64,000 nt of DNA from a candidate division WOR-3 bacterium (lineage in GTDB: Bacteria > Hydrothermota > Tepidihabitantia > SM23-42): assembly GCA_027026255.1 (NCBI GenBank), contig JALVOT010000014.1, forward strand, positions 23,986-87,985, in the 5' to 3' direction. Shown here piece after piece: positions 309 through 28,023 of this stretch. The translations under genes and the position numbers were made by a program. The notes beneath the pieces were generated by a model, which saw only the letters and a list, made by a program, of their open reading frames with translations, was not told the DNA's origin and did no database searches. Every line of letters starts with the position of its first letter. Within the stretch, counting starts at the first letter, position 1.

Positions 309-1151
309 TTAATAGTATCGGGCAATGAAACGATGCACCAGACGATAGGCGATGAAGTTAATTAAAAGGATGATGATTATCAAAACGGTTGCAGTAGCAT
401 ACGCCTTGGGCATTGAGATGCCTTCCCGTGCAAGGATATAAAAATGGACAGCGAGGGTGCGGGTTGATGAGAATATTGAGGTCGGTAATCCCAAGGAAGA
501 GCCAGCAGTAAATATCACCGCAGCAGTTTCACCGATCGCCCGACCAATACCCAGAATAACACCGGTTAGGATACCGGGCAGAGCAGTAGGAAGCACGACC
601 TTTAAGATTGTATCAAGTTTTCCTCCACCTAAGGAGTAACTTATCTCACGGTAGGCCCGGGGGACGGTCTTTATTGCCTCTTCTGATGTTCTTATGATCG
701 TGGGCAGAATCATTACTGCTAAGGTGAGTCCTCCGGAAAGCACACTCCAGCCAAAGTTGAGGGTAATTACAAAGAAGATGAATCCAAACAATCCAAAGAT
801 GATTGAGGGCACACCATTCAGGCAGTCTGCACCAAAACTGATTATCCGACGCACAAATCCTGCTTTTGTATATTCGACTAAATAGACCGCACTTCCCACC
901 CCAATTGGTGCAGCAATGATTATTGCGAGCAGGGTGACAAACAGGGTTCCTAAGATTGACGGAAAGATTCCACCTGCCTTTCCCATATCCGTTGTTCTTT
1001 CGGTTAAAAATTTCAAAGAGACCTGACCAAGTCCGTTTTTCAGGATGAAGCCGATGATAAAGAAGAGGACGAATATTGTAATGACCGTCATTATCAGGAG
1101 TGCGGTATAGGCGATAATCTGGTTTGTGCGTGGTCCTACTCTGAAGGTCAT
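309..1151 (-). CDS. pstA: Phosphate ABC transporter permease PstA
   Basis: 280 aa polytopic membrane protein with the ABC permease signature region (GIGRAIGETAAVIFTAG); position after pstC. Confidence 0.8.
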   Translation of the reverse strand: MTFRVGPRTNQIIAYTALLIMTVITIFVLFFIIGFILKNGLGQVSLKFLTERTTDMGKAGGIFPSILGTLFVTLLAIIIAAPIGVGSAVYLVEYTKAGFVRRIISFGADCLNGVPSIIFGLFGFIFFVITLNFGWSVLSGGLTLAVMILPTIIRTSEEAIKTVPRAYREISYSLGGGKLDTILKVVLPTALPGILTGVILGIGRAIGETAAVIFTAGSSLGLPTSIFSSTRTLAVHFYILAREGISMPKAYATATVLIIIILLINFIAYRLVHRFIARYY

Positions 1152-1984
1152 TATTCCTTCCCTTTAAATCTTATTGCAATGATATTGAGAATCACGATGA
1201 TAATAAAGAGAAAGGAACCACAGGCAAAGAGGGCAGCCCTGTGATCACCGGTTGCATAACCGAGTTCTAAGGCAATGGTTGAGGTCAGGGTTCGGACTGA
1301 ATCGAGTATTGAATGGGGAATCTTCAGGGCATTGCCTGCGATCATAATCACTGCCATTGTCTCACCGATCGCCCGACCCATCCCCAGAATAATCCCGGCG
1401 ATGATGCCGGAACGTGCCGCCGGTATCAAAAGCATCACAACGGTCTGCCATTTTGTCGCCCCGAGGGCAAATGAACCTTCGCGATAGGTTTTGGGTACAG
1501 CCCTTAATGAGTCATAAGAGATGCTGACGATGGTTGGTAAAATCATTATGCCGAGGATTATGCTTGCGGTGAGCACTGAAAAGCCCGGGCCACCAAAATG
1601 GGTGCGGACAAAAGGAACCAGAATAACAATACCCATAAAACCATAAACCACGGAAGGAATGCCGGCCAGAAGTTCAATAATGGGTTTAAGGGTTTTCTGG
1701 ATTGTTCCTGAGGAAAATTCAGAGAGGAAGATTGTGCAGGCAAGTCCGAATGATACACCGATAATCAATGCCCCGGCAGTCACCATTATAGAGCCGACAA
1801 TCATTGAAAGAATTCCGAAATGTCCCCGGGTTGGAGCCCAGTGGGTTGAAAAGATATTATGGAGTCCGGCTTTAAATATCAGGGGTAATCCCTGCTGGAA
1901 GATAAAGAAGCTAATAAGGGCAAGGGTGAGGATTGCCGAAAAGGCGACTACCATCAAGAACTTTTCAGCAATCTTATCTTTCAT
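1151..1984 (-). CDS. pstC: Phosphate ABC transporter permease PstC
   Basis: 277 aa permease paralogous to PstA (GMGRAIGETMAVIMIAG); start overlaps the pstS stop. Confidence 0.8.
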   Translation of the reverse strand: MKDKIAEKFLMVVAFSAILTLALISFFIFQQGLPLIFKAGLHNIFSTHWAPTRGHFGILSMIVGSIMVTAGALIIGVSFGLACTIFLSEFSSGTIQKTLKPIIELLAGIPSVVYGFMGIVILVPFVRTHFGGPGFSVLTASIILGIMILPTIVSISYDSLRAVPKTYREGSFALGATKWQTVVMLLIPAARSGIIAGIILGMGRAIGETMAVIMIAGNALKIPHSILDSVRTLTSTIALELGYATGDHRAALFACGSFLFIIIVILNIIAIRFKGKE

Positions 1985-2774
1985 TATTAAATGGAACTGC
2001 GGGGATTAAACCATTCCCGGCAAGAATTTTCTGGCCCTTTGGGGATAAGACATAATCAATGAATTTTTTGACTTCACCTTTTGGTTCCTCAAGAAGTAAT
2101 AATAAAAATGGTCGACAGAATTTATAATGGTGGGAGATAAGATTTTCCGGGGTGGGTTTTATGCCATCAATGGCGATAGCCTTTTCCCGTTCATCAACCA
2201 GACCTGCAGATATATATCCGATACCGTTTGGTGTTGTGGCGATAATCTCTCTCACCGAGCCGTTAGAGTCCTGGACAAGGCAGCGGTCACTTATTTCTTC
2301 TCCCTCCATTATCAGTTCCTCAAATGAACCCCGGGTGCCGGAACCTTCTTCACGGGTAACCGGGATTATTATCTCATCCTTTCCTCCGACATCTTTCCAG
2401 TTTCTTATTTTCCCGGTAAAGATACCCCGAATCTGTTCAACCGTTAGATTATCCACGGGATTGCTCGGATGGACTATGACTGCAACGCCATCCATTGCGA
2501 TTAATATCTGTTTAAGCCGTTTCTCATCGCCAATCAGATGTCTTGATGAGGTGCCGATATTGCAGATGCGATTGAATGTCGCCTGGATTCCTGCGGTTGA
2601 ACCACCACCCTGGACAATGATTGCGATGCCGGGATGTTCACGCATATAATTGTCTGCGACCTGTTCAATAAACGGCTGGACCGAGGTTGAACCGGCGATA
2701 ATAATGCCGGAGCCTGCCTTTTTCTGGGTGCAGGTAAGCATAGTAAAGGTTAAAAGCATCAGAAAATATCGCAC
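1974..2774 (-). CDS. pstS: Phosphate-binding protein PstS (probable lipoprotein, GTG start)
   Basis: 266 aa with signal peptide and periplasmic-binding-protein motifs (SGTRGSFEE); first gene of the pst operon. Confidence 0.75.
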   Translation of the reverse strand: MRYFLMLLTFTMLTCTQKKAGSGIIIAGSTSVQPFIEQVADNYMREHPGIAIIVQGGGSTAGIQATFNRICNIGTSSRHLIGDEKRLKQILIAMDGVAVIVHPSNPVDNLTVEQIRGIFTGKIRNWKDVGGKDEIIIPVTREEGSGTRGSFEELIMEGEEISDRCLVQDSNGSVREIIATTPNGIGYISAGLVDEREKAIAIDGIKPTPENLISHHYKFCRPFLLLLLEEPKGEVKKFIDYVLSPKGQKILAGNGLIPAVPFNNER

Positions 2775-2783
2775 GGTCAGGTT

Positions 2784-2811
2784 ATTATAATCAGAATAAC
2801 CAAATCGTCAA
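2784..2811 (-). promoter_or_regulatory. sigma70-type promoter for pstSCAB: TTGACG, 16 bp, TATAAT, 9 nt before the GTG start
   Basis: Read directly on the minus strand: -35 at 2806-2811, -10 at 2784-2789. Confidence 0.5.
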
Positions 2812-2850
2812 TAAAATAATTCATCACTCAGGTAAATGATTCGATAACCT

Positions 2851-3033
2851 ATGATTTTTTCTAAACTTCTTAACATCAATCTTTATTCTGGATTTAAAAA
2901 TCGCCATTCAGGAGGGGTGGCGAGTTGTGGTTCAAGTGTTGAGGAGGCATTTAAAAATCTGAAAGAGGCAGTGGAGCTTTATCTTGAAAATGCCCGTGAA
3001 TTAGGATTACTGGAGCAAATTGAAGCTGAATGA
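2851..3033 (+). CDS. HicB-like (UPF0150) antitoxin-family small protein, no HicA partner
   Basis: C-terminal stretch SCGSSVEEAFKNLKEAVELYLENARELGL resembles the HicB/UPF0150 motif (GC.SQG.TLEEAL.NAKEA.ELYLE). No toxin ORF adjacent. Confidence 0.35.
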   Translation: MIFSKLLNINLYSGFKNRHSGGVASCGSSVEEAFKNLKEAVELYLENARELGLLEQIEAE

Positions 3034-3078
3034 TTTTTCAAGGGGAAATTTCATAATTGTATTATTAAAATATATGAA

Positions 3079-3513
3079 TTATTTGCCAAAGTCAATTTTT
3101 ATATTTATATCAGAAGGCACACGAAATCGTAATAAAATTTTAGAATCACCACTTAAGCGTTGTTTTTCAGCTCTAAATAGTATATTGAGATGTATAGAAT
3201 TATCATTTGTTTTTTCTGCTTGATTAGTAGTATTAGAAGAAAAATGATGTAGGTGTGCTTTTATATTGAGATATCCAGAAAAAGTGTTGTTCAATTTATC
3301 GATTGTTAAATAGCCAATAGCATCGGTTGTTCCTTCTGACAAGGAATATAGAAAACCATTAGCTTTATGGTAAAGAAATGATTTTATGGAGTCAGATTCA
3401 ATATTTACTGAGTCCATCAGGCAAGTATTAAATTTAATACATAAGAAATAATTATGTTGTATAACATCAAGATCATACATACTTGGTGATGCATAGTATC
3501 CATAGATTACCAA
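3079..3513 (-). CDS. Hypothetical protein, possibly an orphan toxin-tip remnant (TTG start)
   Basis: 144 aa ORF lying directly 3' of a degenerate Rhs core-end relic (3522-3545) but out of frame with it. No recognisable motif. Confidence 0.3.
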   Translation of the reverse strand: MVIYGYYASPSMYDLDVIQHNYFLCIKFNTCLMDSVNIESDSIKSFLYHKANGFLYSLSEGTTDAIGYLTIDKLNNTFSGYLNIKAHLHHFSSNTTNQAEKTNDNSIHLNILFRAEKQRLSGDSKILLRFRVPSDINIKIDFGK

Positions 3514-3521
3514 TACAGAGT

Positions 3522-3545
3522 AGTTTCCTTAAGGGGTTATTGATA
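3522..3545 (-). repeat. Degenerate relic of the Rhs core 3' end (encodes ..NNPLR..)
   Basis: ccttaaggggttattga matches the block encoding VNNPLRF at 7555-7571 and 5624-5640. Confidence 0.4.
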
Positions 3546-3562
3546 CCTTTAGTAACATAGTA

Positions 3563-4024
3563 TCAAATTCCTACAACCAAAAGCTGCAGGAATTTTGGCC
3601 CCATCCATAGAGCGAACCAGGTATTATCACCCTTAATTCGCAACCAGAACCACATAAGTAGAATTACCGCTATTGAACCAAGTAAACAATACCAGCCACT
3701 GATGGTTAAAATTAAACGTAATAACAATGGCGGTTCGAATTTCTTGCTGGCCTTACGAAGTTTAAGAGAAAATATAAAGATGAATATTCCGATCAGAACC
3801 AGAGGTGTTAAACCGATACGCAAAGGGGTAGTATCAGCAACCGTTGGGAATAAATCTGCATACCGTGACCAAGCATCCCAGAGTCTTAATACATATTCAA
3901 AAATGGTATTGAAAATAAAACGTGCGAGTATAGAGTATGGGAAATAGAAAGCAAAAGCACTAAAGAGAATTATAACTGCCCCTAAGAGAAATTTTTTAGT
4001 GAAGAAGTCTTTTATTTGCAGCAT
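3563..4024 (-). CDS. Small polytopic membrane protein, candidate Rhs-toxin immunity protein (paralogue of 4556-5050)
   Basis: 153 aa with about 4 TM segments; shares blocks with the 164-aa protein (PLRIGLTPLVLIGI vs SLRIALTPLLLIGI; ISGWYCLLGSIAVILLMWF vs ICGWYCLVMTSIVILAMWF). Lies just 3' of a cassette-junction relic carrying an intact promoter. Confidence 0.5.
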   Translation of the reverse strand: MLQIKDFFTKKFLLGAVIILFSAFAFYFPYSILARFIFNTIFEYVLRLWDAWSRYADLFPTVADTTPLRIGLTPLVLIGIFIFIFSLKLRKASKKFEPPLLLRLILTISGWYCLLGSIAVILLMWFWLRIKGDNTWFALWMGPKFLQLLVVGI

Positions 4025-4112
4025 TAATGCTCCTATTTATAAAAGTGTGAATTGACCCATTTTTTAGCAAAATAATATTCATCTTAGAGCGAATTTTCAC
4101 ATATTTCCTATC

Positions 4113-4225
4113 TGATAAGTAGTTTATCCCATTTTCGTCAAGTCTGCTGCCCGTAGTCTTTAATTTCTTCTCCATCTTTCCTTATTGATAATTATAGCAA
4201 AATTATCAAGGATTTCAAGATTTTT
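4113..4225 (-). repeat. Degenerate relic of an orphan Rhs-CT cassette 5' junction (leader plus first ~25 codons, no toxin domain)
   Basis: About 75-80% identical by eye to 5733-5840. Minus strand reads MEKKLKTTGSRLDENGINYLSDRKY, compare orphan cassette MKNELKTFSKELDENNLNYFCQRYY. Confidence 0.55.
4191..4218 (-). promoter_or_regulatory. Conserved cassette promoter (TTGAAA, 16 bp, TATAAT, 15-nt leader) in the relic cassette
   Basis: Same box sequence and spacing as the orphan-cassette promoter at 5803-5830. Confidence 0.5.
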
Positions 4226-4247
4226 TTTGATTCTTACGCATTTTTAT

Positions 4248-4532
4248 TTAGAATAAGAATATGTTGTAAATGTCTGTATGAATGCGGTTTAGCAATGTCC
4301 TTATGGATAAAACAATGCCTGTCAATCCAAATATGAAGTTTATTAATCTAACATAAGATAATTTTCTTTTGTCTTTATATGTCAGACCATACATTACTGC
4401 AATTATACTGAAAGGAATGCCTAACACAGGCTGGGTAGATAAAATCAAACCCATAATTACCCATACAAATTTATCAAAAATATTACTACTTGAATAATTA
4501 GTATCCATATTTTTTTTCTTGTTGATGAACAT
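4248..4532 (-). CDS. Small membrane protein (2-3 TM), function unknown
   Basis: 94 aa hydrophobic ORF between the two immunity-candidate paralogues. Confidence 0.4.
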   Translation of the reverse strand: MFINKKKNMDTNYSSSNIFDKFVWVIMGLILSTQPVLGIPFSIIAVMYGLTYKDKRKLSYVRLINFIFGLTGIVLSIRTLLNRIHTDIYNIFLF

Positions 4533-4555
4533 TATATATTAAATACATAATTATC

Positions 4556-5050
4556 TTAAGGCCCAGCTGGCATATAAATTGGCGCTCCGCTTAAATAGCC
4601 ATTCAGAAAATGGCCATAAACCATTATAAAAACGCTTGATTTATCAGGCCAAGTAAATGCACGAATTTGTATATCAAACCACATCGCAAGAATTACTATG
4701 CTTGTCATAACTAAACAATACCAACCACAAATCAATGAAATCCATCTAAGATTTATTAAACGATTAACTTTGCATATTGAAGATAATTTCTGTAACAAAA
4801 GAAAAAGTAGTATACCAATGAGTAGTAAAGGTGTAAGAGCGATACGTAAAGAATTTATACTGTTGGGAAGTGCTGATGTTGACAACCAGAACCTGGTTGT
4901 ATAATTCCATATAGTAACAAAGATGAACTTGGCTAAAATAGGGTATGGCAAATACCCGGCGATAAAAGCAATTATTATTGTAATTATGCCGATTGCAGCT
5001 CTATTCAGAAAAAGCTTATGTTTTGCGACTTCACCCAGTGCATTTATCAT
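4556..5050 (-). CDS. Small polytopic membrane protein, candidate immunity protein for the orphan Rhs toxin
   Basis: 164 aa; start overlaps the stop of the orphan toxin ORF (5047-5050), the usual toxin-immunity arrangement; paralogue of 3563-4024. Confidence 0.5.
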   Translation of the reverse strand: MINALGEVAKHKLFLNRAAIGIITIIIAFIAGYLPYPILAKFIFVTIWNYTTRFWLSTSALPNSINSLRIALTPLLLIGILLFLLLQKLSSICKVNRLINLRWISLICGWYCLVMTSIVILAMWFDIQIRAFTWPDKSSVFIMVYGHFLNGYLSGAPIYMPAGP

Positions 5051-5787
5051 TTTCTATAGAAATAAAAATAAACCCATCTATTTGCGAAGAGATGGCCTGA
5101 ATTATTTGCTTTTCTGTGAATTATGTTCCACCAAGATAGGTCAGTCCTTGTCCAACCGTGGGCACGTAGCCAAATAATTTCAGCAAATTCATGGGCAAAA
5201 GATTTTCGTAGACTCCAAGTCTTATTCCATTGCATTTTATTAATTTTAAACTCCCATATTGTCAAAATCTCATTTTTTGGATTACCTGCAACAGATTTTC
5301 CCAGGTGTTCAACAATCATATATTCAAATTTAGACACTTCAGCCCAATAATCTATTGTGGCAAGAAATCCAGAATTTTCTTTTAACCAAGATATTGCATT
5401 AAGAATATCATCTAAGGTTATTTTTCCCCCCGGATGATAACTTTCCCAATCATCATATGTAATTTGATCCAGCATCTTTTCAAGACTGCGCATTGCGTTC
5501 ATTAACTTACTTTGTCTTCTCAGTTGTTCCATATGAATAAATGTCCACCATGAGGGGTCGCCAGCGTCTACGGGACTTTCTTTTTTAGATTCCATCATTC
5601 TTTCACCAGTAGGGTCGGTAAACCTTAAGGGGTTATTGACACAATAGGCATAGGGAGATGATGCAGGGGAATTCTCAGGGTCCAACCTCAAAAACCTCCC
5701 AATCTCTGCCTCATAATACCGCTGGCAGAAGTAGTTAAGATTGTTTTCATCAAGTTCCTTGCTAAAGGTCTTTAATTCATTCTTCAT
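5047..5787 (-). CDS. Orphan Rhs C-terminal toxin cassette (Rhs core tail plus unrecognised toxin domain)
   Basis: 246 aa. N-terminus MKNELKTFSKELDENNLNYFCQRYYEAEIGRFLRLDP...YAYCVNNPLRFTDPTG duplicates the end of the full-length Rhs core (FDENNLNYFCQRYYEAEIGRFLSLDP...YAYCVNNPLRFTDPLG), then diverges completely. Confidence 0.65.
   Translation of the reverse strand: MKNELKTFSKELDENNLNYFCQRYYEAEIGRFLRLDPENSPASSPYAYCVNNPLRFTDPTGERMMESKKESPVDAGDPSWWTFIHMEQLRRQSKLMNAMRSLEKMLDQITYDDWESYHPGGKITLDDILNAISWLKENSGFLATIDYWAEVSKFEYMIVEHLGKSVAGNPKNEILTIWEFKINKMQWNKTWSLRKSFAHEFAEIIWLRAHGWTRTDLSWWNIIHRKANNSGHLFANRWVYFYFYRK
5612..5762 (-). repeat. Direct repeat of the Rhs core 3' end (orphan copy)
   Basis: 41-bp block 5612-5652 is identical to 7547-7587; about 70-bp block 5690-5762 is near-identical to 7640-7712. 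The spacer between blocks differs. Confidence 0.8.
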
Positions 5788-5802
5788 TTTTCCTTCTTGA
5801 TA

Positions 5803-5830
5803 ATTATAGTAAAATCAAGTGATTTTTCAA
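5803..5830 (-). promoter_or_regulatory. Internal promoter of the orphan toxin cassette (TTGAAA, 16 bp, TATAAT, 15-nt leader with AAGGA)
   Basis: Read on minus strand: -35 at 5825-5830, -10 at 5803-5808, ATG at 5785-5787. Confidence 0.5.
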
Positions 5831-5955
5831 GAAGATATTTCATCGCCCGGTATTTTATTTTTCTGGAAAAGTTGTGTATTAACAGAGGAAAATAATTGTG
5901 GAATCGAAACAAGTTGAAGGAAAATAAATATAAGTTAATTATTCCACAGCGTTTG

Positions 5956-6747
5956 TTAATGAAACACACCTCGTATATTCAATATTACCGATATTAATAC
6001 GAAAATATTAAAGCTCACAAAATAACCAATCGGTAATAACAAAGAATGTCGTTTCCAATATAAGTAAATTACGAGCAGTCCATTAAATAAAATCCAGATT
6101 GTGTTAATGATACTAAACTGATTGTGCGAGAATATTATCCCATGGCACAATGTGAAAATTATGGTAGTAACTATTGCACCAGTTTTAATACCCATCTTTT
6201 TAGCAAAAGCAGGGAATGCAAATCCTATGAAAAATATAGATTCTCCAATTGGTCCTATGATACTTACAATAATTGCGCGTGAGAAGTTTATGTAATAATT
6301 AATTTGATTGGAGGCAATAAACTTTGGTACTTTTGGTAAAATATTGTTGCCTGTAATTATGATTGGTAGTAATAATATAAGTTTTAAACATAAAGCCAGG
6401 ATAAATCCAGTAAAAAAATAAATTAGCCACCTATCGGATCGTAAACCTAAAGTTCTTAGTGATCCAAATTTTCTCAGTTTTATCCATAATATAGGCACAA
6501 ATGTGTAGAGAAGTTGATTAATCATTAAGCATAATATAACTATATACCAACGTTTTTTAAGATAAGTTAATAATATTGAATAAAGTTCTGAATTTTTTTC
6601 GAAATGTGAGAAATCTATATGTGTAGGTGAAAAGATTTTAAATGAAATTATGACCAAACTCAAATATATTAAAATAATAAGAAAAAAGGTCACGACGACA
6701 TCAGTTATACCCCATTTTACATTAAGTATCTCATTAGATTTGTTCAT
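5956..6747 (-). CDS. Polytopic membrane protein with degenerate CPBP/Abi-like motifs, candidate immunity protein for the full-length Rhs toxin
   Basis: 263 aa, about 7-8 TM. GPIGESIFFIGF and FTLCHG...SHNQF loosely match CPBP motifs (EExxxR, FxxxH, HxxxN) with catalytic positions substituted. First gene 3' of the Rhs toxin; extremely AT-rich. Confidence 0.4.
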   Translation of the reverse strand: MNKSNEILNVKWGITDVVVTFFLIILIYLSLVIISFKIFSPTHIDFSHFEKNSELYSILLTYLKKRWYIVILCLMINQLLYTFVPILWIKLRKFGSLRTLGLRSDRWLIYFFTGFILALCLKLILLLPIIITGNNILPKVPKFIASNQINYYINFSRAIIVSIIGPIGESIFFIGFAFPAFAKKMGIKTGAIVTTIIFTLCHGIIFSHNQFSIINTIWILFNGLLVIYLYWKRHSLLLPIGYFVSFNIFVLISVILNIRGVFH

Positions 6748-6951
6748 ATTTATCTTATGCTGGCAATAATTGTACAGCGATATTTCGATTGAAGAAAATA
6801 ATAATCAATGGTCTTGATACGATATTCGATTTGAGGTTATCTGTAATGAATAATCGAACTTATTCAGAAATTTATAAAAATGCAAACTGTATAGGTGGTA
6901 TCGCATCTGTAGTCCTGGTTAAATATCTATATCTGATGTGATATATAGCCA

Positions 6952-9900
6952 TTAGCTTAAGCCCCTGGGAATAGGAAGAATTTCTTTTTCCTCTTTTTTG
7001 GTGGGTTCAGACGGTTTTCGCCACCAGGCTGGTGGAAACATATTTTTATAGTAATCATCGTTCCACATTTCATCGAGTTCCTCGATTGGTAATTTATTAT
7101 AACCACGAGGAGGATAAACGATATTCTTCGGATGATGTATATTCTCAAAAGCAGGCTGCCTTTCTTTATGTTTTTCTGGTTGAGGTAGATTAGGTTCGTT
7201 CGGATAGAAAGATGATTTGGGGATAATCTGTTCTAATGATTCGATGAAGTTCTCGCCAAGAATTATGTATCCAGACAATTGGAGTATAATACCTACGTAA
7301 TGTGTTATGGGGTGAGGGTACGCTTCAAGCATTACTCCCAAATTAATTAATTCTATTTCAAGCTGTGAGCCTTTCACAGTTTCTAACGCTTGACTGCCCA
7401 AATTTTTTGTTGTATTATAGAACACTTTTATTTTTGTTTCAATATTTGCTTCAGAATTTTCAAAAAATAGATTCAACCCTGATTCATGGCCAATGAATTC
7501 GTAATAATCGTTTGGCGACATAAAGAGAGGTACCTGCAGCCCCAATGGGTCGGTAAACCTTAAGGGGTTATTGACACAATAGGCATAACGGTTCTGGGAT
7601 TGAGGAACTTCAATATAACCACCAAAGGGATCAAGAGACAAAAACCTTCCGATCTCTGCCTCATAATACCGCTGGCAGAAGTAGTTAAGATTGTTTTCAT
7701 CAAATTCCTTGCCGGTGAAGGTATGGGTGTTATCAGCAGTACCTGATTTTGTTATTTCACCGAATGGATAATAATATGCAGTCCAGACCACTGAACCCGA
7801 TTCATCGGTCATCTTCCTTGATGAACCTAAAACATCACAATGATAAAAGGTGGTATCTGCACCATCAATCCTTGCAATATGTAATCCACCGGCATAGACA
7901 TACCTTGCCAGTATTGAACCATCCGGGGAATATTCAATAAGCGGATTTATACCGTCATAAACATAGTAAATCGTATAGTCAGTTGTTGTATTAATTCCGG
8001 ATGTAGTTATCTCACCATAGCCGTTGATTTCACCACCGAATGTTTTATTGGTGCCGGGAAAGACATCAACTGCATTTGAACCACCCTGATGCAGGGTATC
8101 AACATTCACAGGTAAACCAGGGTCAAAGGTTGAGATGGTCCACCGCAGGGGACCATAATGATTTAATAACTGTTTGGAGATCTTTATCTGGATACTGCCA
8201 TCAGGACCAATAATCCGTTCCACTGTCATACCAGAGGGCATTACAGTCTTTGTGCCGTCTGCCCTGTAAAAACCGTATTCTCCATCGTCTATATATAGAC
8301 AGTATTCCCAGGCAGCATTTTTTGGCACCTTTGTCTTCATATCTTCTGGTAAGGTAATTCTACCCGAATTTGGAATCGTGTCAAGGTCTAAGGTGATAAA
8401 GAGCTTTAATCGGCTGACCTGGGCAAAGATATATCGGTTGACGACGGTAAAGATATAATACCGGGCGGTATTTTTTATGTAGACTTTTTCAATATCAAGT
8501 CCTTTATTATATACTGTATCCGGACCGGATGATTTGAATCCTAAGTCGTTTGCTGCATCAGTGAATAGGGTTCTTGAAGTTATCCCTGTGCCGGGAGTTA
8601 ATTTATGATAATGTTTTTTGACCCTGAGGCCGGAACTGTTATAGGCATAATCAATGGTTTCAGGACCTTTTTTATAATAGATTAGCCGATTATTCCAGTC
8701 ATAGGCAAATGAATCGACCAAACTGCCTGAGGAATTGTTGCGTTTAATAATATTACCATTGTCATCATAATAATACTCATAATCTCTGTGGTCGGTTTTT
8801 AGCCGGTTGGTATTTGACCAGTATGAATATGAGTTACCATTTTTTGCAGTGCGGTTTCCTGTTTTGTCATAGCTGAATGATTGGATACCTGCTAATTGGG
8901 TGACCGCGGTGAGTCGATTCAGGGCATCATAGGTAAAGGTCTGGGTGTATCTGCTGTTAAGATAGTCGGTAATTGAATGGATATTGCTGTTATCTTCGTA
9001 AGAATAACCGAGTTTTAGAATATCACCGGTTTTATAAGCCCTCACCAGGATTGGACGAAGCCGGGAATCATAGGTTATTGTATCCACTACCCCGTTATCA
9101 TAACTTAGCTTTACAATCTGACCTGCAGGATTATATTTAAAGGTTGTTAAAAGACCGGGGACGGATTTTATCTGGCCGAGTCTATTGTATCGGTATTTTA
9201 TTTTGTCGTCTGTTGATAAATAGATCAGGATGCACTGGTTCGCATAATTAAAATTATAGGTAAACGATTTTTCACCACTCAGACCTACAATATTAACCCT
9301 TTTGAGTCCTAATCTGCCTCGATCATCATAGTAGTATGTTATTGAATCTATTCCGCAGGTAACAACTTTACTCAGTCGACCCGTAGGATTAGCCAGTTCA
9401 TAAGGAGTTGGTCCTCCGGTCGTAATATCATAGGTCAGTCTGACTTTATCTGCCCAGGTGGAGCCATTATCGGTTGAAAGTTCTATTTTGGTCAAACGGT
9501 TGATATTATCATAGGTATACCGAACCCATCCATTCGGGTCTTTTTTTAGCGTTAAATTTCCCAGGTCATTATATTCATCATAGAGCACATCAACTGGGTT
9601 ACCATTGTAATAATATGAAGATGTTGCATCCGGACCATCCACACCACGCAATCTGCCAAGGGTATCATAATAGTATTTTGTCACCCTCCCTTCGGCATCG
9701 GTCACTTTTGTCAATCTGCCGAGGGTATCATATTGATAACAGGTGCGGTTATTATTGGCATCAATGATTGTATCAATTGCGCCGTAGGCATTATAAATAT
9801 GGATGGTTTTATTACCCTTTTCATCAATGATGGTGTCGGTATTGGCATAGTATTTTACCTGAGAATATTTACCATCAGGATGGGTTATTTTTATAATGCG

Positions 9901-10257
9901 TCCCAGAGCATCATACTCATAGGTGGTAATTTGAGACCAGGAAGGTGAACTATAACTGTATGATGTACCGAAGATTGTATAGGGGTTACAAACTGAATCT
10001 TTTTTACTGTTTTTATTATAAGAAATATTCCGGATAATCGTCCGGGCGTTATCAAAATCAAATTTTTTGGTTTGAATCAGTTTACCAAATCCATCATAGA
10101 AGTTTTTACTTACTATCCAGTATGTAGCCCCAGCTTCGTCGATGAAGTCTATTTTTATCGAATCAATAACTGCAGATGGAATTTCAAAGTCTTTATAGGT
10201 AATTCTCCGGGATGCTGAAGATTCATTGGGCTGGAAGGTTTTTATTAATCGGCTCAT
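6952..10257 (-). CDS. Rhs/YD-repeat protein with C-terminal polymorphic toxin domain of unrecognised family
   Basis: 1101 aa with many YD repeats (YDALGRII, YDTLGRLT, YDALNRLT). Rhs core end FYHCDVLGSSRKM...YAYCVNNPLRFTDPLGLQ, then about 210 aa unique C-terminus ending in a Pro/Lys-rich tail. No signal peptide or PAAR-like N-terminus visible. Confidence 0.85.
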   Translation of the reverse strand: MSRLIKTFQPNESSASRRITYKDFEIPSAVIDSIKIDFIDEAGATYWIVSKNFYDGFGKLIQTKKFDFDNARTIIRNISYNKNSKKDSVCNPYTIFGTSYSYSSPSWSQITTYEYDALGRIIKITHPDGKYSQVKYYANTDTIIDEKGNKTIHIYNAYGAIDTIIDANNNRTCYQYDTLGRLTKVTDAEGRVTKYYYDTLGRLRGVDGPDATSSYYYNGNPVDVLYDEYNDLGNLTLKKDPNGWVRYTYDNINRLTKIELSTDNGSTWADKVRLTYDITTGGPTPYELANPTGRLSKVVTCGIDSITYYYDDRGRLGLKRVNIVGLSGEKSFTYNFNYANQCILIYLSTDDKIKYRYNRLGQIKSVPGLLTTFKYNPAGQIVKLSYDNGVVDTITYDSRLRPILVRAYKTGDILKLGYSYEDNSNIHSITDYLNSRYTQTFTYDALNRLTAVTQLAGIQSFSYDKTGNRTAKNGNSYSYWSNTNRLKTDHRDYEYYYDDNGNIIKRNNSSGSLVDSFAYDWNNRLIYYKKGPETIDYAYNSSGLRVKKHYHKLTPGTGITSRTLFTDAANDLGFKSSGPDTVYNKGLDIEKVYIKNTARYYIFTVVNRYIFAQVSRLKLFITLDLDTIPNSGRITLPEDMKTKVPKNAAWEYCLYIDDGEYGFYRADGTKTVMPSGMTVERIIGPDGSIQIKISKQLLNHYGPLRWTISTFDPGLPVNVDTLHQGGSNAVDVFPGTNKTFGGEINGYGEITTSGINTTTDYTIYYVYDGINPLIEYSPDGSILARYVYAGGLHIARIDGADTTFYHCDVLGSSRKMTDESGSVVWTAYYYPFGEITKSGTADNTHTFTGKEFDENNLNYFCQRYYEAEIGRFLSLDPFGGYIEVPQSQNRYAYCVNNPLRFTDPLGLQVPLFMSPNDYYEFIGHESGLNLFFENSEANIETKIKVFYNTTKNLGSQALETVKGSQLEIELINLGVMLEAYPHPITHYVGIILQLSGYIILGENFIESLEQIIPKSSFYPNEPNLPQPEKHKERQPAFENIHHPKNIVYPPRGYNKLPIEELDEMWNDDYYKNMFPPAWWRKPSEPTKKEEKEILPIPRGLS
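7547..7712 (-). repeat. Rhs core 3'-end segment repeated at 5612-5762 (master copy)
   Basis: See 5612-5762. Confidence 0.8.
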
Positions 10258-10260
10258 AAT

Positions 10261-10288
10261 AGATTACCCGGAACTTTAAGGATGTAAA
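10261..10288 (-). promoter_or_regulatory. Possible promoter of the Rhs gene (TTTACA, 16 bp, TAATCT, 3 nt before ATG)
   Basis: Correct spacing but a weaker -10 than the other promoters in this window. Confidence 0.3.
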
Positions 10289-10464
10289 TGTGTGGGATGT
10301 ACTGAGGGCGATTGGCATTCAAAGTGCAGTAAATATCGTTGTTGATAAGAATTTTGAGGGTAGTATTACAGTTTATCTGGGAAAGGTTACTTCAGAACAG
10401 GGATTGAAGAAGCTGCTTGAGGCAAACGGTTTTCTCCGAAGAAAAAAGAGAATTATTTTTTTGT
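10263..10464 (+). pseudogene. Gene fragment with secretin-N/STN-like motif; no canonical start, runs into stops
   Basis: Frame reads ..NFKDVNVWDVLRAIGIQSAVNIVVDKNFEGSITVYLGKVTSEQGLKKLLEANGFLRRKKRIIFL*, resembling the N-terminal domain motif of secretins and TonB-dependent receptors (DVLRAL...NIVVD...G.VT..L......AL..LL.ANGL). Only about 60 codons. Confidence 0.3.
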
Positions 10465-10652
10465 AAAGAAAAGATTAAAAGAACGATTAAAAAAGTTTAC
10501 AGCCGCTGATGGTAAACTCGGTTTGAATGTGAAGAATGCATCGAGAGATGAAAATTATTTCCGGTATCGGATCGGGGTTTGCATCTGAACTTTCCATCCT
10601 CCAGATTTTGTTTTTTTAACTCAGGATAAAAATTCACTGCTCCACTTATTGC

Positions 10653-10680
10653 TTGATTTAAAGAAAATTATATGTATAAT
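10653..10680 (+). promoter_or_regulatory. sigma70-type promoter (TTGATT, 16 bp, TATAAT) with 21-nt leader and AAGGAGG for the Yip1 gene
   Basis: Boxes and SD read directly upstream of ATG 10702. Confidence 0.5.
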
Positions 10681-10701
10681 AAAATACTAAGGAGGTAGAG
10701 T

Positions 10702-11259
10702 ATGTTAGAAAAGATTAAAGCAATACTATTTCAACCCAAAGAGACCTGGCCCAAGATTAAGGCCGATGGTGAGAATTTCGGTGAGGTCCTAACCAGGTAT
10801 GCGGTGCCTCTGGCAGCAATCCCTGCTTTTTTTGGTCTACTCGGTCATTCAATATTCTTCCGGATATTCTTCGGTTTTTCATTAATCTGGGCGATTGTCT
10901 ATTATATACTGATACTTATTGGACTCTATGTTGAGGGTATTGTGATTAACGCCCTTGCTCCTTCATTCGGTTCAAGACAGGATTCAACTGATGCATTCAA
11001 ACTTGCGGTCTATGCCTATACCCCGGTTTTTGTCGCCGGTATATTGAACATCTTCCCTATGTTGGGGATCCTGGCTTTCCTCATTTCTCTTTATGGATTG
11101 TATCTTTTATACCTGGGTCTGCCGGTTATGATGGAGACACCAAAGGAAAAGGTCATCGGTTATCTTGTGGTGACTATTATCGTTCTGATAATCATATATT
11201 TTATAATCGGCGCAATTTCCACGGCAATTCTTTCTATCTTCTGGAGGCCGCTCTTTTAA
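10702..11259 (+). CDS. Yip1-family membrane protein
   Basis: 185 aa, 5 TM, layout typical of Yip1/DUF1282 proteins; strong SD. Confidence 0.6.
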   Translation: MLEKIKAILFQPKETWPKIKADGENFGEVLTRYAVPLAAIPAFFGLLGHSIFFRIFFGFSLIWAIVYYILILIGLYVEGIVINALAPSFGSRQDSTDAFKLAVYAYTPVFVAGILNIFPMLGILAFLISLYGLYLLYLGLPVMMETPKEKVIGYLVVTIIVLIIIYFIIGAISTAILSIFWRPLF

Positions 11260-24048: not shown

Positions 24049-24197
24049 ATATTCTGGTCTGTCCAAAGTGTAAGGGTGAATTGGAATATGACCAGAAAAA
24101 TCAGGAGTTAATTTGTCACAAATGTAAACTTGCCTATGCAATAAAAGATGATATTCCTATTATGCTTATTGAAGAGGCAAGGAAATTGAATGATTGA
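24027..24197 (+). CDS. Trm112/YcaR-like small zinc-ribbon protein (56 aa; below ORF-track cutoff)
   Basis: [56 protein letters not shown]; AAGGAGG SD at 24016-24022. Confidence 0.6.
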
Positions 24198-27100
24198 CCT
24201 TGCACTGATAGTTTTCGTTATTGCAGGGACAGATATCCGAACAGTTGAAGACGGTGTTATAGTATCATTTTCAATGACAAAGGTTGAGGCGGAAAGTCTT
24301 AAAATCCCTGATGCGCGGTGGTTAAATAAGGTCGGTGATCCGGCACTGCCTTGTTTACACTATAAATTCGGTATCCCACAGAATGGTGAGGTTGCGGTTT
24401 CGATACTGGAGAATGATGAGGCGGTGATCGATGGTCAGAAGATTGACCCAGTGGTTGAGTTGGGTATTAAGGAATCGGCACCCCGGGATACAGAATTATT
24501 CCGCAGTGAAGTCTATAAAGAAAATAAGTTTTTCCCTCACAATTTGGTTGTTGTTTCCGAACCGGGATATCTGCGTGATCTCTATACAGTTGATGTGCGG
24601 ATTAATCCGGTCCGTTATAACCCGGTGAAGAACCGGGTGCGTTATTCGAGAAGATTTATTATAAAAATAAAGTTTAAAGGTAAGCCGTTCATTAATGCTC
24701 CTTTTGATACTACATTTGAAAGGGTAATGCGCCATCTGGTTGATAATTATGAGCAGTGCCGTCTCTGGCGTTTGACACCATCACGGAATGGGACAAATCC
24801 ATTTGCCCAGGGAACCTGGTTTAAGATAGCGGTTGAAAAAGAGGGGATTTATCGGATTGGCTATAAAGAGATTAAGAATGCCGGGATCGACCCTGCCCAA
24901 TTTGACCCCAGGACGATGCGGATTTATACGGCAAAATTTGACCTCTTAACACGGAGCGTTCCATTGCCTGATTCACTCGATTCATTGGTTGAAATCCCCT
25001 GTTTTGTTCAGGGTGAATCAGATGGGGTGTTTAATAAAGATGACTATCTTGTTTTCTACGGCTATCCAGCAAGCCATTTTATTCCTGATACCTCAATTTC
25101 CTGGTTTTATAATGGATATGCAAAAAAGAATATCTACTGGTTTACATTTGGTGGAAAATATGGTAAGAGGATGTCGAGGGTAGATGCCCGTTATAATGGA
25201 GACCCTGTCGATACCCTGGTACAGGAGGTGCTGCATTTTGAAGAGGATAATGGTAATCCGACGCGTTCTGGCATAAACTGGTACTGGCAGGAGGTTTCCC
25301 CGGGTGAGGGTCAGGGCGCTGAAACCTCGGTTAATATTGAACATCCCTTTGCAGCGGGAGATGCCCGTATCAGCGCCAGCCTTTTCGATTCAATCGGGGT
25401 GAGCGGTCCATTTATTTATCGTTTTTCCGTAAATGATAATATAGCTTATAATGAGACCTTATCGCTCAGTTCTCACTGGTCATTTCCTCCCCAGTATTTT
25501 AATATCGAGACATCCTTAAAAGGTGATTCCTCTATTTTTAAGATTGAACTCATCCGACCCCAGGGGGTGGAAGGCAAGATGCTTGCCTGGTTTAATGCCC
25601 TTGATATTCTTTATCAGCGCCTCACCCGATTGACAGAACCTTTCCATGCATATTTTTCGGCACCCGAAGATTACTCTATCAAATGTGATGATGCAGAAGA
25701 ACCGGTTTTTGTCTTTGATATTTCTGATATACAAAATCCCAGGATGTTGTATAATTTAAAGCTGGATAATGGAAAACTTTATCTTTCAGGAACCTGCGAT
25801 TCTTTTCAGCTGCTCTATTTTTGTAAACTTGGTTCGACTGAACCGGTTAAATTGATTCCCGCCAAACCGGGAAAATTACGCGAGCATTCTTCTGGATGCC
25901 AGTATCTTATAATCACCCATCCGAAATTTTCTAAGGCGATAATGCCCCTTGTGCACTACCGCAGCCAGGACTATACAGTTAGGGTGGTGAATATTTATGA
26001 AATCTATGATGATTTTTCATACGGAAAGTTTGACCCCTTAGCGATTAAGCATTTCTTTTATTATGCCCTTAATAACTGGGATGTCTTTCCGAGTTTTGTG
26101 CTTTTGGTGGGTGACGGCACATACGATTATAAGAATAATCTTCATAAAGAAAATCCTCCCAATTATATTCCGATGTATGAAACAGGGAGTCTTTTAATCG
26201 GTAATCCCGGAATTCCTCCGAATACAATTTATGAAGGTGAATATACCGATTTTGGAGGCGGCGAGTCAGTTGCCTCAGGCAGAATCACGGTCAGGACCAA
26301 TGCCGAGGTCAGGGACTTTATTGATAAGTTAATTACCTATGAGACGAAAAATATTGACGGTATCTGGAATCAAAGGATTATCCTTGCCGGTGATGATGAG
26401 TATGCGGGAAACCACTGGGAAGGACCGGATATGCACTGTGGCGCCTGTGAGGCTATATTCAGGAATGTCCCGGATTCTCTTTATAACTTCGCCAAGATTT
26501 ATATGATAAGTTATCCGCCGTTTCCACCCTACGGAGGTCAGGTCAATAAGGTGAATGCCCGCAAGGCATTTATTCGGGAATTGAATAAGGGCGGTTTTGC
26601 CGGAGTCTATTTCGGCCATGGCAATACTCATCAGCTTGCCCATGAAGGGCTCTTCTATGATATTTATATTCCCGAAATAAATAATGGGAGACGATGTTAT
26701 TTCTTTTATTTTGGTTCCTGCACCGTAGGAAGGTTTGATGATTCGGATTATGAATGTATCGGTGAGGAATTTGTGCGGATTAAAGACGGCGCAATCGGCA
26801 CGATGGCATCAACCGGTGGCACCTATGTGCAGGGTAATGTGGCTATCGGTAATACTCTTTTTAGACTGATGACCTCACCGGATAGTGATTTGACAATGGG
26901 CGAGTGTTTTCGCATCGCCAAGGTGTATGGAAGCCCGTCATATCTTCTTATCGGTGAGCCGGCAACGAGATTAAGAAAAATAAAGACAAAAATGACATTG
27001 ACTGCCTTGAGTGATTCATTGAAGCCCCTTCAAAGGTTGAAAGCGGTCGGGTCTGTCCCTTATTATTATCTTGACGCCTTTGTTCGTGATACTACACATA

Positions 27101-28023
27101 TCGAGAAGTTTGATGCTACAACCCAGGATAAGATTAGTGGTCATGTCTATCGGTTGGTCCAGACCGGACGGAATGCCTGGAAACCGTTTGATTATCAAAT
27201 AGATGGTAAAGAGATATATTCAGGATTCTGGGATGATGATACTGCGAAGATGATTGTTCCGCAGGTATCTACGGTAAACCGCCCGGTAGTAAAATTGACC
27301 TATTGCGCCAATCGCAAATCTGGTTCGCTCGATTCAATTCTGATTTATGGGGTGGCATCACCTTCATCTGATGATCAGGGACCGCAACTAAAACTTTATG
27401 ATCAGGCAAGGGTTTTACAGAATGGGGATTGGGTGGATAAGGATTTTATCCTTACCGGTCGGGTTGCTGATATGAGCGGCATTAATCTGCTAAATTCAGT
27501 TGAGGACATCAATCGCGGTTTTTATCTCTATATAAATAATGATATCGATAATAGGATTGATTTAAGAGACTATTTTACCTATGATAAGAATTCCTATACA
27601 GATGGAACATTTAATGTGAAGATTAGCCTGCCTAATCCGGTTGATACAATTAAGATAAATGTTGCGGATAATAATTATAATCAGACATATCAGAAACTTA
27701 TATTAAATACCGATATTTATGAATCGGTTAAGATTTCTAATTTTCTGGTCTATCCAAATCCGATTACAAATGACGCCGGGGTGTGGTTTACATTTAACCT
27801 TTCAAGTTCAGCCCTGGTTAATTTAAAGGTCTTTACAATTGCAGGACGACTTGTAAAGACAATCGATGATTTCTACTGTCGAGCCGGTTATAATCAGAAA
27901 TTCTGGGATGGTCTTGATGATTCGGGTCAGCCTCTTGCTAATGGAGTTTATCTGGTCAGGGCATATTGTGAGAAGGCTAACGCCCGGACTGAAGTGATTG
28001 AAAAATTTATTATCGCCCGATAA
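24190..28023 (+). CDS. Gingipain-like cysteine peptidase (family C25) with T9SS-type C-terminal sorting domain
   Basis: 1277 aa; C25 catalytic dyad context [10 protein letters not shown]...[15 protein letters not shown]; C-terminal about 80 aa ([20 protein letters not shown]...[10 protein letters not shown]) resembles the T9SS CTD beta-sandwich. Confidence 0.7.

What the first reader, a model, noticed from the sequence alone, without database searches (positions are those of the whole stretch)
5956..6747. Degenerate CPBP/Abi-like membrane protein immediately 3' of the main Rhs toxin, in an extremely AT-rich segment
The protein has the topology and weak motif remnants of CPBP intramembrane proteases (FTLCHG; SHNQF) but lacks the canonical EExxxR. 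Catalytically degenerate CPBP/Abi proteins are known bacteriocin immunity factors. The gene and its neighbours (about 5.8-6.8 kb) are visibly more AT-rich than the flanking core genes, consistent with recent acquisition.
Basis: partly seen in the sequence, partly recalled or inferred. Interest (0 to 1): 0.45.

Follow-up and report, generated by a model that had tools for sequence, protein, structure and literature searches.

The report
CPBP-like membrane partner of Rhs toxin
The gene is a real but partly degenerate relative of CAAX/CPBP membrane proteases that, in several related uncultured bacteria, always sits just behind the same previously undescribed type of Rhs toxin tip, so it is most likely that toxin's membrane-embedded immunity protein.

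Summary

Its motifs are EExxxR->E169-S-xxx-I174, FxxxH kept (H202), and HxxxN->F243xxxN247. Among 118 aligned CPBPs it is the only one without the last His.

The new result is comparative. Its roughly 12 close relatives are all from metagenomes, apparently candidate division WOR-3. In 7 of about 10 informative contexts they lie 200-350 nt downstream of an Rhs C-terminal domain. In six of these the domain belongs to one new family: a hydrophobic hairpin, a Pro/basic linker and a YNKFP motif, with no Pfam or PDB match.

At a syntenic locus, PstA/C are 82-86% identical, but the CPBP is only 29% identical. Near-identical direct repeats bracket the toxin-tip+CPBP cassette.

Best reading (about 0.6): a cognate, probably non-proteolytic, membrane immunity protein. 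This is inferred and untested. CPBP immunity is known for peptide bacteriocins; I found no report of it for Rhs toxins. Interest is moderate.

The parts
5956..6747 (-). CPBP/Rce1-like polytopic membrane protein, 263 aa, about 7 TM helices. Key codons: E169 at 6243-6241, H202 at 6144-6142, F243 (His in all relatives) at 6021-6019, N247 at 6009-6007. Proposed immunity protein.
6748..6951 (-). 204-nt AT-rich spacer (GC 0.30) between the Rhs stop and the CPBP start. It has no credible ORF, no terminator-like site on the - strand, and no element conserved with relatives' spacers.
6952..7536 (-). Rhs C-terminal (toxin) domain, residues 908-1101, after DPLGL. It belongs to a new family: a hydrophobic Gly/Pro hairpin (LINLGVMLEAYPHPITHYVGIILQLSGYIILG), a Pro/basic linker, a YNK(F/L)P motif and a Trp-rich tail.
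7537..10257 (-). Rhs shell and core (RHS repeats, Rhs-associated core, DPxGL). It corresponds to residues 811-1716 of the 1907-aa syntenic homologue, so it lacks that protein's N-terminal ~810 aa, including its signal-peptide-like start.
7547..7712 (.). Upstream copies of the direct repeats at the 3' end of the Rhs core: 7547-7587 and 7639-7712. They pair with 5612-5652 (100% identity) and 5689-5762 (96%).
5612..5762 (.). Downstream copies of the same direct repeats, at the 5' end of the orphan toxin gene. With the upstream copies they bracket the toxin-tip+CPBP cassette (spacing about 1.94 kb), so recombination between them would swap the tip.
5047..5787 (-). Orphan Rhs C-terminal module, 246 aa: a core remnant ('LDENNLNYFCQRYYEAEIGRFL') followed by a different, unrelated toxin tip.
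4556..5050 (-). 164-aa multi-TM protein whose start overlaps the orphan toxin's stop. Candidate immunity protein for the orphan tip; not a CPBP.
3563..4024 (-). 153-aa paralogue of 4556-5050 (39% identity, E=7e-23). It follows a 59-aa decayed orphan remnant at 3996-4175.

Best explanation
The gene encodes the cognate protection (immunity) protein of the toxin tip carried by the upstream Rhs protein.

Shown:
- It is a polytopic inner-membrane protein of the CPBP/Rce1 fold.
- It is the first gene after the toxin tip, on the same strand.
- Homologues of it follow homologues of the same tip in other genomes.
- Tip and CPBP form one AT-rich, fast-diverging cassette bounded by recombination repeats.

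Inferred:
- The tip has no conserved acidic, His or Cys residues, and its most conserved core is a hydrophobic Gly/Pro hairpin. It therefore probably acts on or in the cytoplasmic membrane rather than as an enzyme.
- The CPBP would neutralise it there by taking the hairpin or the Pro-rich tail into its intramembrane cavity.
- In this window's copy the second Glu, the Arg and the oxyanion-hole His are replaced (S170, I174, F243), so neutralisation is most likely by binding rather than cleavage. Relatives keep E/H/H/N and could still cut.
- By the positive-inside rule the C-terminus is periplasmic. The TPR domains fused to, or encoded next to, several relatives would then face the side from which an incoming toxin arrives.
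For: Family and fold.
- PF02517 match above threshold for this protein and all 9 closest relatives.

Genomic coupling.
- CPBP relatives lie 200-350 nt downstream of an Rhs C-terminal domain in the window, L011 (P0002), L013 (P0003), L016/17 (P0006), L018/19/20 (P0007) and L009 (P0115).
- In L002/3/4 (P0008) a 76-aa two-TM ORF lies between the Rhs gene and the CPBP.

The tips are homologous.
- Window against L018: 68 bits, 35% identity over 138 aa.
- Window against L013: 34.7 bits. Window against L009: 30.8 bits.
- A profile of the tips finds all six of these tips (the tips of all these loci except L002) and nothing else in the 32 fetched loci.

Specificity.
- Seven WOR-3 genome loci were fetched through the Rhs core alone. 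They hold about 12 Rhs ends, none with this tip and none followed by a CPBP.
- The window's own orphan tip and L002's second Rhs are followed by other proteins.

Cassette behaviour.
- At the syntenic locus L016, PstC/PstA are 86/82% identical and the Rhs shell 55%. The CPBP is 29% identical, and the tip is barely alignable.
- Direct repeats of 100% and 96% identity bracket tip+CPBP.
- GC is the lowest in the window, and is also low in most relatives.

The tip is not obviously an enzyme.
- Invariant residues are only G, P, K, N and W.
- No Pfam, PDB or PADLOC hit.

Precedent.
- Channel-forming polymorphic toxins are almost always neutralised by polytopic membrane proteins (PMC12744356; Tse5/Tsi5, PMC9637101).
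- Abi/CPBP proteins are reported bacteriocin immunity factors (PMC9298176).
Against: - There is no functional data of any kind.
- The loci that show the coupling were found through the CPBP, so the association is ascertainment-biased. The only search starting from the tip returned a single extra protein, P0119 (= L009), which is indeed followed by a CPBP.
- Three subfamily members are not behind an Rhs tip. P0010 and P0117 sit beside T9SS-type cargo. P0005 has no Rhs in 1.1 kb upstream.
- The 200-350 nt gap is unusually long for a toxin-immunity pair.
- In L002 a small two-TM ORF occupies the canonical immunity slot, and the tip there is not detectably of the same family.
- The hydrophobic hairpin is only moderately hydrophobic. 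It falls below a TM threshold in L018, so membrane action of the toxin is a guess.
- The window's Rhs lacks the N-terminal ~810 aa of its homologue, so the toxin may not be deployed at all.
Confidence: 0.6

Rival explanations
1. Relic. The gene began as the partner of this toxin tip but is now decaying or functionless. The Rhs gene lost its 5' ~40%, including its export signal, so nothing selects for the partner. The unique His->Phe change and the extreme AT content would then be marks of relaxed constraint.
For: - The window Rhs aligns only to residues 811-1904 of the 1907-aa syntenic homologue, which starts with a signal-peptide-like sequence.
- The window protein is the only one of 118 CPBPs lacking the HxxxN His.
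- It has the lowest GC in the window.
Against: - The 263-codon frame is intact and aligns end to end with relatives.
- 12 invariant and 12 near-invariant subfamily positions are kept, except H243 and F242 (Tyr in the window).
- Orphan immunity genes are commonly kept for protection against neighbours' toxins (PMC12744356).
- Low GC is shared by intact relatives.
Confidence: 0.15
2. Toxin-processing or export factor. The CPBP is an intramembrane protease or conduit that matures or releases the Rhs tip in the producer, as proposed for PrsW-type peptidases in polymorphic toxins and for CAAX-like proteases in bacteriocin and peptide maturation. It would not be an immunity protein.
For: - The catalytic-dyad equivalents E169 and H202, plus N247, are kept. 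Relatives keep the full E/H/H/N set.
- CPBP relatives are known processing enzymes (SagE, SilX; PMC9298176).
- PrsW peptidases, distant CPBP relatives, are linked to polymorphic-toxin release (PMC3482391).
- No other candidate immunity gene lies between the Rhs gene and the CPBP in the window.
Against: - Rhs proteins release their tip by their own aspartyl autoprotease at the DPxGL core, which is present here.
- This copy lacks three residues whose mutation severely impairs Rce1 (PMC12067869).
- A maturation factor would be expected to track the conserved Rhs body. Instead the CPBP tracks one tip family and diverges as fast as the tip.
- If it were not the immunity protein, the toxin would have none.
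Confidence: 0.1
3. Bystander. It is an ordinary housekeeping or scaffold CPBP, like SpdC or Abx1, that merely lies in a variable region next to Rhs genes in this lineage.
For: - CPBPs are very common, and under 1% are in toxin loci (PMC3578759).
- Subfamily members P0010 and P0117 sit beside T9SS cargo genes, not Rhs genes.
- SpdC, the best structural match, is a non-catalytic scaffold.
Against: - The protein recurs directly behind one tip family, in loci whose other neighbours differ.
- It has cassette-like divergence, low GC and bracketing repeats.
- It was not found in any of 185,579 reference genomes by the pattern scan, so it is not a conserved housekeeping gene.
Confidence: 0.1

Closest known systems
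Abi/CPBP bacteriocin self-immunity proteins of lactic acid bacteria and streptococci (SkkI, PlnI, PlnLR, BlpY-type; Kjos et al. 2010, cited in PMC9298176 and PMC3578759)
   Same: - Same protein family (PF02517).
- Encoded next to the gene for a secreted antibacterial toxin.
- Proposed to protect the producer at the membrane.
   Different: - Those proteins guard against small peptide bacteriocins in Firmicutes and carry the canonical motifs. From memory, the motifs were required for immunity.
- Here the toxin is the about 190-aa tip of an Rhs protein in a WOR-3-like bacterium.
- The whole subfamily has E-S/T-xxx-[ITVP] instead of EExxxR.
- This copy also lacks the HxxxN His.
Polytopic membrane immunity proteins of membrane-depolarising polymorphic toxins: Tsi5 for the Rhs effector Tse5 (PMC9637101, PMC10684867) and ExiCD for EsxX (PMC12744356)
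   Same: - The logic and gene order are the same: a toxin tip with no enzymatic signature, followed by an integral membrane protein.
- Orphan copies occur in arrays.
   Different: - Tsi5 has 2 TM helices. ExiC and ExiD belong to DUF5079 and DUF5080.
- None is a CPBP, and none descends from a protease family.
- The tip here has no detectable similarity to Tse5-CT or to glycine-zipper toxins.
- No secretion system for it was identified in the window.
SpdC/LyrA (PDB 6u0o) and Abx1, CPBP proteins that act without catalysis
   Same: - They are precedents for CPBP folds used as intramembrane binding or scaffold modules, with function independent of the catalytic residues.
   Different: - They bind a cell-wall hydrolase or a histidine kinase of the same cell, not an incoming toxin.
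- They are not in toxin cassettes.
Rce1 glutamic intramembrane protease (MmRce1, PDB 4cad)
   Same: - Equivalents of the dyad Glu140/His173 and of Asn231 are present (E169, H202, N247).
   Different: - Equivalents of Glu141, Arg145 and His227 are Ser, Ile and Phe.
- Mutation of Glu141 or His227 severely impairs MmRce1 (PMC12067869).

Membership tests
CPBP / Rce1-like family (Pfam PF02517) | Significant match to the family profile, above the curated threshold | tested here: met
   E=4.4e-10, 40.2 bits against a cut-off of 22.4, profile positions 7-92 of 93. All 10 subfamily members match. Four NCBIfam CPBP models hit weakly, all below their equivalog cut-offs.
CPBP / Rce1-like family (Pfam PF02517) | Polytopic helical fold of Rce1/SpdC, with the motifs on consecutive TM helices | tested here: met
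   [not shown]
Active CPBP glutamic intramembrane protease | Motif 1, EExxxR | tested here: not met
   The motif is E169-S170-I-F-F-I174. Among 118 aligned CPBPs, 106 have the second Glu and 102 have the Arg.
Active CPBP glutamic intramembrane protease | Motif 2, FxxxH | tested here: met
   F198-T-L-C-H202.
Active CPBP glutamic intramembrane protease | HxxxN motif (oxyanion-hole His and Asn) | tested here: not met
   The motif is F243-V-S-F-N247. The window protein is the only one of 114 sequences covering this column that lacks the His.
Active CPBP glutamic intramembrane protease | Proteolytic activity | not testable with these tools
   This needs biochemistry. Loss of the equivalents of MmRce1 Glu141 and His227 predicts severe impairment (PMC12067869).
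Immunity protein of a polymorphic (Rhs) toxin system | Encoded directly downstream of the toxin's C-terminal domain, on the same strand | tested here: met
   It is the first credible ORF after the Rhs stop, with a 204-nt gap. The gap is longer than usual.
Immunity protein of a polymorphic (Rhs) toxin system | Co-occurs with one toxin-domain family across genomes and not with other tips of the same Rhs lineage | tested here: met
   In six independent loci the same tip family is followed by a CPBP. About 15 other Rhs ends carry other tips; one of them, the first Rhs of L002, is followed by a CPBP after a 76-aa ORF, and the rest by none. Caveat: most of the positive loci were found through the CPBP.
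Immunity protein of a polymorphic (Rhs) toxin system | Belongs to a hypervariable, exchangeable cassette distinct from the conserved toxin body | tested here: met
   Identity to the syntenic L016 locus: PstC/A 86/82%, Rhs shell 55%, CPBP 29%. Bracketing repeats. GC 0.28 against 0.40 for the Rhs shell.
Immunity protein of a polymorphic (Rhs) toxin system | Neutralises the cognate toxin | not testable with these tools
   This needs a co-expression or competition assay.
Abi-type bacteriocin self-immunity (Kjos 2010) | Located in a peptide-bacteriocin locus, next to small bacteriocin precursor genes | tested here: not met
   The neighbours are Rhs modules and membrane proteins. No bacteriocin-like precursor or transporter is present in 2800-10800.

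The most novel reading that the evidence does not exclude
This locus may represent an undescribed toxin-immunity system. A new family of Rhs toxin tips (hydrophobic hairpin plus YNKFP tail) in candidate division WOR-3 would be countered by CPBP intramembrane proteases. In their ancestral, motif-complete and TPR-bearing forms, these would capture the incoming toxin in the periplasm and cleave it inside the membrane. That is enzymatic rather than stoichiometric immunity. The window's copy would be a derived form that only binds.
Probability: 0.2. Interest if true: 0.7.

Novelty: new variant of a known kind. Interest (0 to 1): 0.45.

Why it matters
- Immunity to polymorphic toxins is almost always described as one small protein that binds one toxin. 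A protease-family membrane protein in that role for an Rhs toxin would extend the Abi/CPBP bacteriocin-immunity idea from Gram-positive peptide toxins to large contact- or secretion-delivered toxins in an uncultured phylum.
- It would give a testable function to a branch of the very large, mostly unassigned bacterial CPBP family.
- It would define a new Rhs toxin domain with no known relatives.
- The natural series makes a built-in experiment on whether protection needs proteolysis: motif-complete+TPR, motif-complete, then His-less.

Tried and rejected
- **Word-indexed homologue search with the single protein.** Found only the protein itself. The exhaustive phmmer search was needed.
- **Single-sequence AlphaFold model.** Too poor to use, pLDDT 59.
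- **PDB sequence searches.** The CPBP gave nothing, and the toxin tip gave only chance hits above E=1, alone or as a profile.
- **Pfam and PADLOC on the tip and on the orphan-array proteins.** Nothing meaningful. An anti-phage 'Abi' reading is therefore rejected.
- **Pattern scan of 185,579 reference genomes for the CPBP subfamily.** No relatives.
Rejected from the alignment.
- **Conserved RNA, promoter or small gene in the Rhs-CPBP spacer.** No conservation beyond the closely related pair L011/L013. No Rfam or tRNA hits anywhere in the window. The sigma-70 and terminator scan was uninformative.
- **Remnant of the TPR extension downstream of the window gene.** None found.
- **Literature.** No paper in the library links CPBP/CAAX proteins to Rhs or polymorphic-toxin immunity. 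The 'CPBP' hits in the Bodo saltans endosymbiont paper are locus tags. Kjos et al. 2010 could not be read.
- **afdb50 fold search.** The library was unavailable.

Full report
**1. What is at the coordinates**

The - strand ORF 5956..6747 (ATG start, 263 aa) is uninterrupted, and its first residues align with the starts of its relatives. It lies 204 nt downstream of the stop of a 1101-aa Rhs gene (6952..10257, - strand). The spacer holds only 26- and 33-aa non-hydrophobic ORFs.

Downstream on the same strand is a classic Rhs orphan array:
- an orphan module (5047..5787) with a core remnant and an unrelated tip;
- a 164-aa multi-TM protein whose start overlaps the orphan's stop (4556..5050);
- a 94-aa TM protein (4248..4532);
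- a 59-aa decayed orphan remnant (3996..4175);
- a 153-aa paralogue of the 164-aa protein (3563..4024; 39% identity, E=7e-23);
- a 144-aa ORF of unknown function (3079..3513).

The array is flanked by pstSCA (309..2774) and a Yip1-family gene (10702..11259). The rest of the window is ordinary chromosomal content: Mfd, Rnf, trehalose synthesis and a C25 peptidase, among others.

**2. Base composition**

- The gene has GC 0.282 and GC3 0.254.
- For 44 ORFs outside the island, GC is 0.419 +/- 0.024 and GC3 is 0.421 +/- 0.036.
- None of 58,117 windows of 792 nt outside the island is as low (minimum 0.338).
- The global minimum of the 64-kb window lies inside this gene.
- The low-GC island spans about 2850-7100, the whole array plus the Rhs tip.
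- GC3 is affected as strongly as total GC, and the membrane-protein genes pstA and pstC have GC 0.46. The effect is therefore not just hydrophobic amino-acid usage.

**3. Family and fold**

- PF02517 (Rce1-like) matches at E=4.4e-10, 40.2 bits against a cut-off of 22.4.
- Several NCBIfam CPBP models hit weakly, below their equivalog cut-offs.
- An AlphaFold model built on an alignment of ten subfamily members has pLDDT 82 and pTM 0.80.
- Hydropathy and the model give about seven TM helices. The Lys/Arg-rich loops (92-106, 183-189, 231-235) imply N-in, C-out (inference from the positive-inside rule).

**4. Motifs**

I aligned all 118 proteins retrieved to a subfamily profile.
- The window protein reads E169-S170-xxx-I174 for EExxxR.
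- It reads F198xxxH202 for FxxxH.
- It reads F243xxxN247 for HxxxN.
- Of 113 proteins with all columns present, 96 are fully canonical.
- The Rhs-linked subfamily as a whole has Ser/Thr for the second Glu (Glu is retained only in P0007) and I/T/V/P for the Arg.
- The window protein is the only sequence lacking the last His.

[quoted passage not shown] Mutation of Glu141, His227 or Asn231 severely impairs function, and Arg145 lines the bottom of the cavity (PMC12067869). The window protein therefore keeps the dyad and the Asn but lacks three supporting residues. Canonical proteolysis is probably weak or absent.

**5. Relatives and their neighbourhoods (the decisive evidence)**

The family is rare. 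The word-indexed 5.8-billion-protein search found only the query. An exhaustive phmmer search against 1.84 billion representatives found 114 hits, of which only 10 were below 1e-10. A profile search added three more. All are from metagenomes.

| CPBP relative | Locus | Gene order |
|---|---|---|
| P0006 | L016/17 | full-length 1907-aa Rhs -> CPBP-TPR fusion, then pstSCABB-phoU (syntenic with the window) |
| P0002 | L011 | Rhs -> 56-aa ORF -> CPBP-TPR |
| P0003 | L013 | Rhs tip -> CPBP-TPR |
| P0007 | L018/19/20 | orphan Rhs module -> 46-aa ORF -> CPBP -> separate TPR gene |
| P0115 | L009 | Rhs -> 57-aa ORF -> CPBP |
| P0008 | L002/3/4 | Rhs -> 76-aa two-TM ORF -> CPBP |

Not Rhs-linked, or uninformative:
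- P0010 and P0117 sit beside T9SS-type cargo.
- P0005 has no Rhs in 1.1 kb upstream.
- P0004 follows a DUF2948-like protein on a 1.7-kb contig.
- P0009's contig is too short upstream and has an Rhs gene downstream.

**6. The toxin tips are one family**

- After the DPLGL cleavage motif, the window tip (194 aa) matches the L018 tip at 68 bits (35% identity over 138 aa), L013 at 34.7 bits and L009 at 30.8 bits. L011, L013 and L016 link to one another.
- The six-sequence alignment has invariant G67, P74, G89, K124, P142, N147, K148, P150 and W172.
- These fall in a hydrophobic helix-Pro-helix (window: LINLGVMLEAYPHPITHYVGIILQLSGYIILG), a Pro/basic linker, a YNK(F/L)P motif and a Trp-containing tail.
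- No acidic, His or Cys position is conserved, and there is no Pfam or PDB relative.
- A profile of these tips finds exactly these loci among all 32 fetched loci.
- The L002 tip, a glycine-zipper-like TM region, is not detected and shares only a tail resemblance (GYNxxxxEFW...WWRxP). There the 76-aa TM ORF may be the true partner and the CPBP a leftover from a displaced cassette (inference).

**7. Specificity and cassette behaviour**

- A genome scan with the Rhs core end found seven loci, six of them titled candidate division WOR-3 MAGs (the seventh is an unnamed bacterial MAG), holding about a dozen Rhs ends. None carries this tip or is followed by a CPBP.
- Between the window and the syntenic L016, identity is 86% for PstC, 82% for PstA, 67% for PstS, 55% for the Rhs shell and 29% for the CPBP. 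The tip is almost unalignable.
- Near-identical direct repeats bracket tip+CPBP: 7547-7587 = 5612-5652 at 100%, and 7639-7712 ~ 5689-5762 at 96%. This is the arrangement expected for tip switching by recombination with the orphan.
- CPBP genes are also AT-rich relative to the Rhs core in L002, L009, L011 and L018 (0.30-0.36 against 0.44), and less so in L016.

**8. Interpretation**

The most economical reading is a cognate toxin-tip/immunity pair in which the immunity protein is a CPBP-fold membrane protein. Polytopic membrane immunity is the rule for channel-forming polymorphic toxins (PMC12744356; Tse5/Tsi5). Abi/CPBP proteins are reported immunity factors for peptide bacteriocins.

Membrane action of this tip is inferred only from its composition. 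Its hairpin is only moderately hydrophobic. For this copy, the loss of three catalytic-site residues favours neutralisation by binding. SpdC and Abx1 show that CPBP folds can work that way. Motif-complete relatives, some with a predicted periplasmic TPR extension, leave proteolytic immunity open.

Caveats:
- ascertainment bias in how the loci were found;
- the long spacers;
- three non-Rhs contexts;
- no experiments.

**9. A complication**

The window's Rhs aligns to residues 811-1904 of the 1907-aa L016 homologue. It lacks that protein's first ~810 residues, including a signal-peptide-like start. No secretion machinery is visible in the window. The pair may therefore be a relic here, and the unique His->Phe change may be a sign of relaxed constraint. 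The intact frame and the otherwise conserved subfamily positions argue that the CPBP is still under selection, perhaps as an orphan immunity gene.

**10. Novelty**

I found no paper in the library that links CPBP/CAAX proteins to Rhs or other polymorphic-toxin immunity. Zhang et al. 2012 mention CPBP only as a distant relative of PrsW peptidases. I rate this a new variant of known kinds: Abi-type immunity, and membrane immunity to Rhs toxins. It comes with a new toxin-tip family. Interest is moderate, and the evidence is comparative only.

Noticed in passing
window 6952-10257 (- strand); L016 3981-9704: The window's 'main' Rhs (1101 aa) corresponds to residues 811-1904 of the 1907-aa Rhs at the syntenic locus of a relative. 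It lacks that protein's N-terminal ~810 aa, including a signal-peptide-like start (MKSIVLLSMIGVAVIPATG...). It may be 5'-truncated and not exported.
   Followed up: partly
window 7547-7587 / 5612-5652 and 7639-7712 / 5689-5762; also 4100-4203 / 5712-5815: Direct repeats of 100% and 96% identity join the 3' end of the Rhs core to the 5' end of the orphan module, bracketing the tip+CPBP cassette. A third, 71% copy marks the decayed orphan remnant. This is the layout expected for toxin-tip switching by recombination.
   Followed up: partly
L011 1682-3409, L013 829-2667, L016 10001-11710; L018 2558-3316 + 3320-4459: The closest relatives are about 570-610-aa fusions of the CPBP domain with an about 100-aa middle domain and a C-terminal TPR array. 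In L018 the same parts are two adjacent genes. The window copy has no TPR part and no remnant of one. The role of the TPR module is unknown.
   Followed up: partly
window 6952-7536; L009, L011, L013, L016, L018 Rhs ends: The Rhs C-terminal domains form a new family (hydrophobic Gly/Pro hairpin, Pro/basic linker, YNK(F/L)P, Trp-rich tail) with no Pfam or PDB match and no conserved acidic, His or Cys residue.
   Followed up: partly
window 4556-5050 and 3563-4024 (- strand): These two multi-TM proteins are paralogues (39% identity). Each follows an orphan Rhs module or its remnant, so they are a second, non-CPBP candidate membrane immunity family. They have no family assignment.
   Followed up: partly
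window 3079-3513 (- strand): A 144-aa ORF at the end of the array has the lowest GC3 in the window (0.186) and no family match. Whether it is a real gene was not established.
   Followed up: no
L002 9539-9769 and 11231-12214: In one relative, a 76-aa two-TM ORF sits between the Rhs gene and the CPBP. The Rhs tip there is a different, glycine-zipper-like one. A Y1 (IS200-like) transposase follows the CPBP, before a second Rhs module. This looks like a cassette replacement that left the CPBP behind.
   Followed up: partly
L023-L029: All named genome hits to this Rhs core lineage are candidate division WOR-3 MAGs, so the window probably comes from a WOR-3 bacterium. No rRNA or tRNA in the window could confirm this.
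   Followed up: partly
window 2851-3033 (+ strand): A 60-aa ORF ('...SVEEAFKNLKEAVELYLENARELG...') between pstS and the array looks to me like a HicB/UPF0150-type antitoxin fragment. HicA/HicB genes also lie upstream of the CPBP locus in L018. I did not test the window ORF against any library.
   Followed up: no
window 24190-28023 (+ strand): A 1277-aa gingipain-like peptidase (Peptidase_C25 with its propeptide) has a C-terminal FlgD_ig domain. This is the kind of C-terminus seen on T9SS-type cargo in neighbouring loci of relatives.
   Followed up: no
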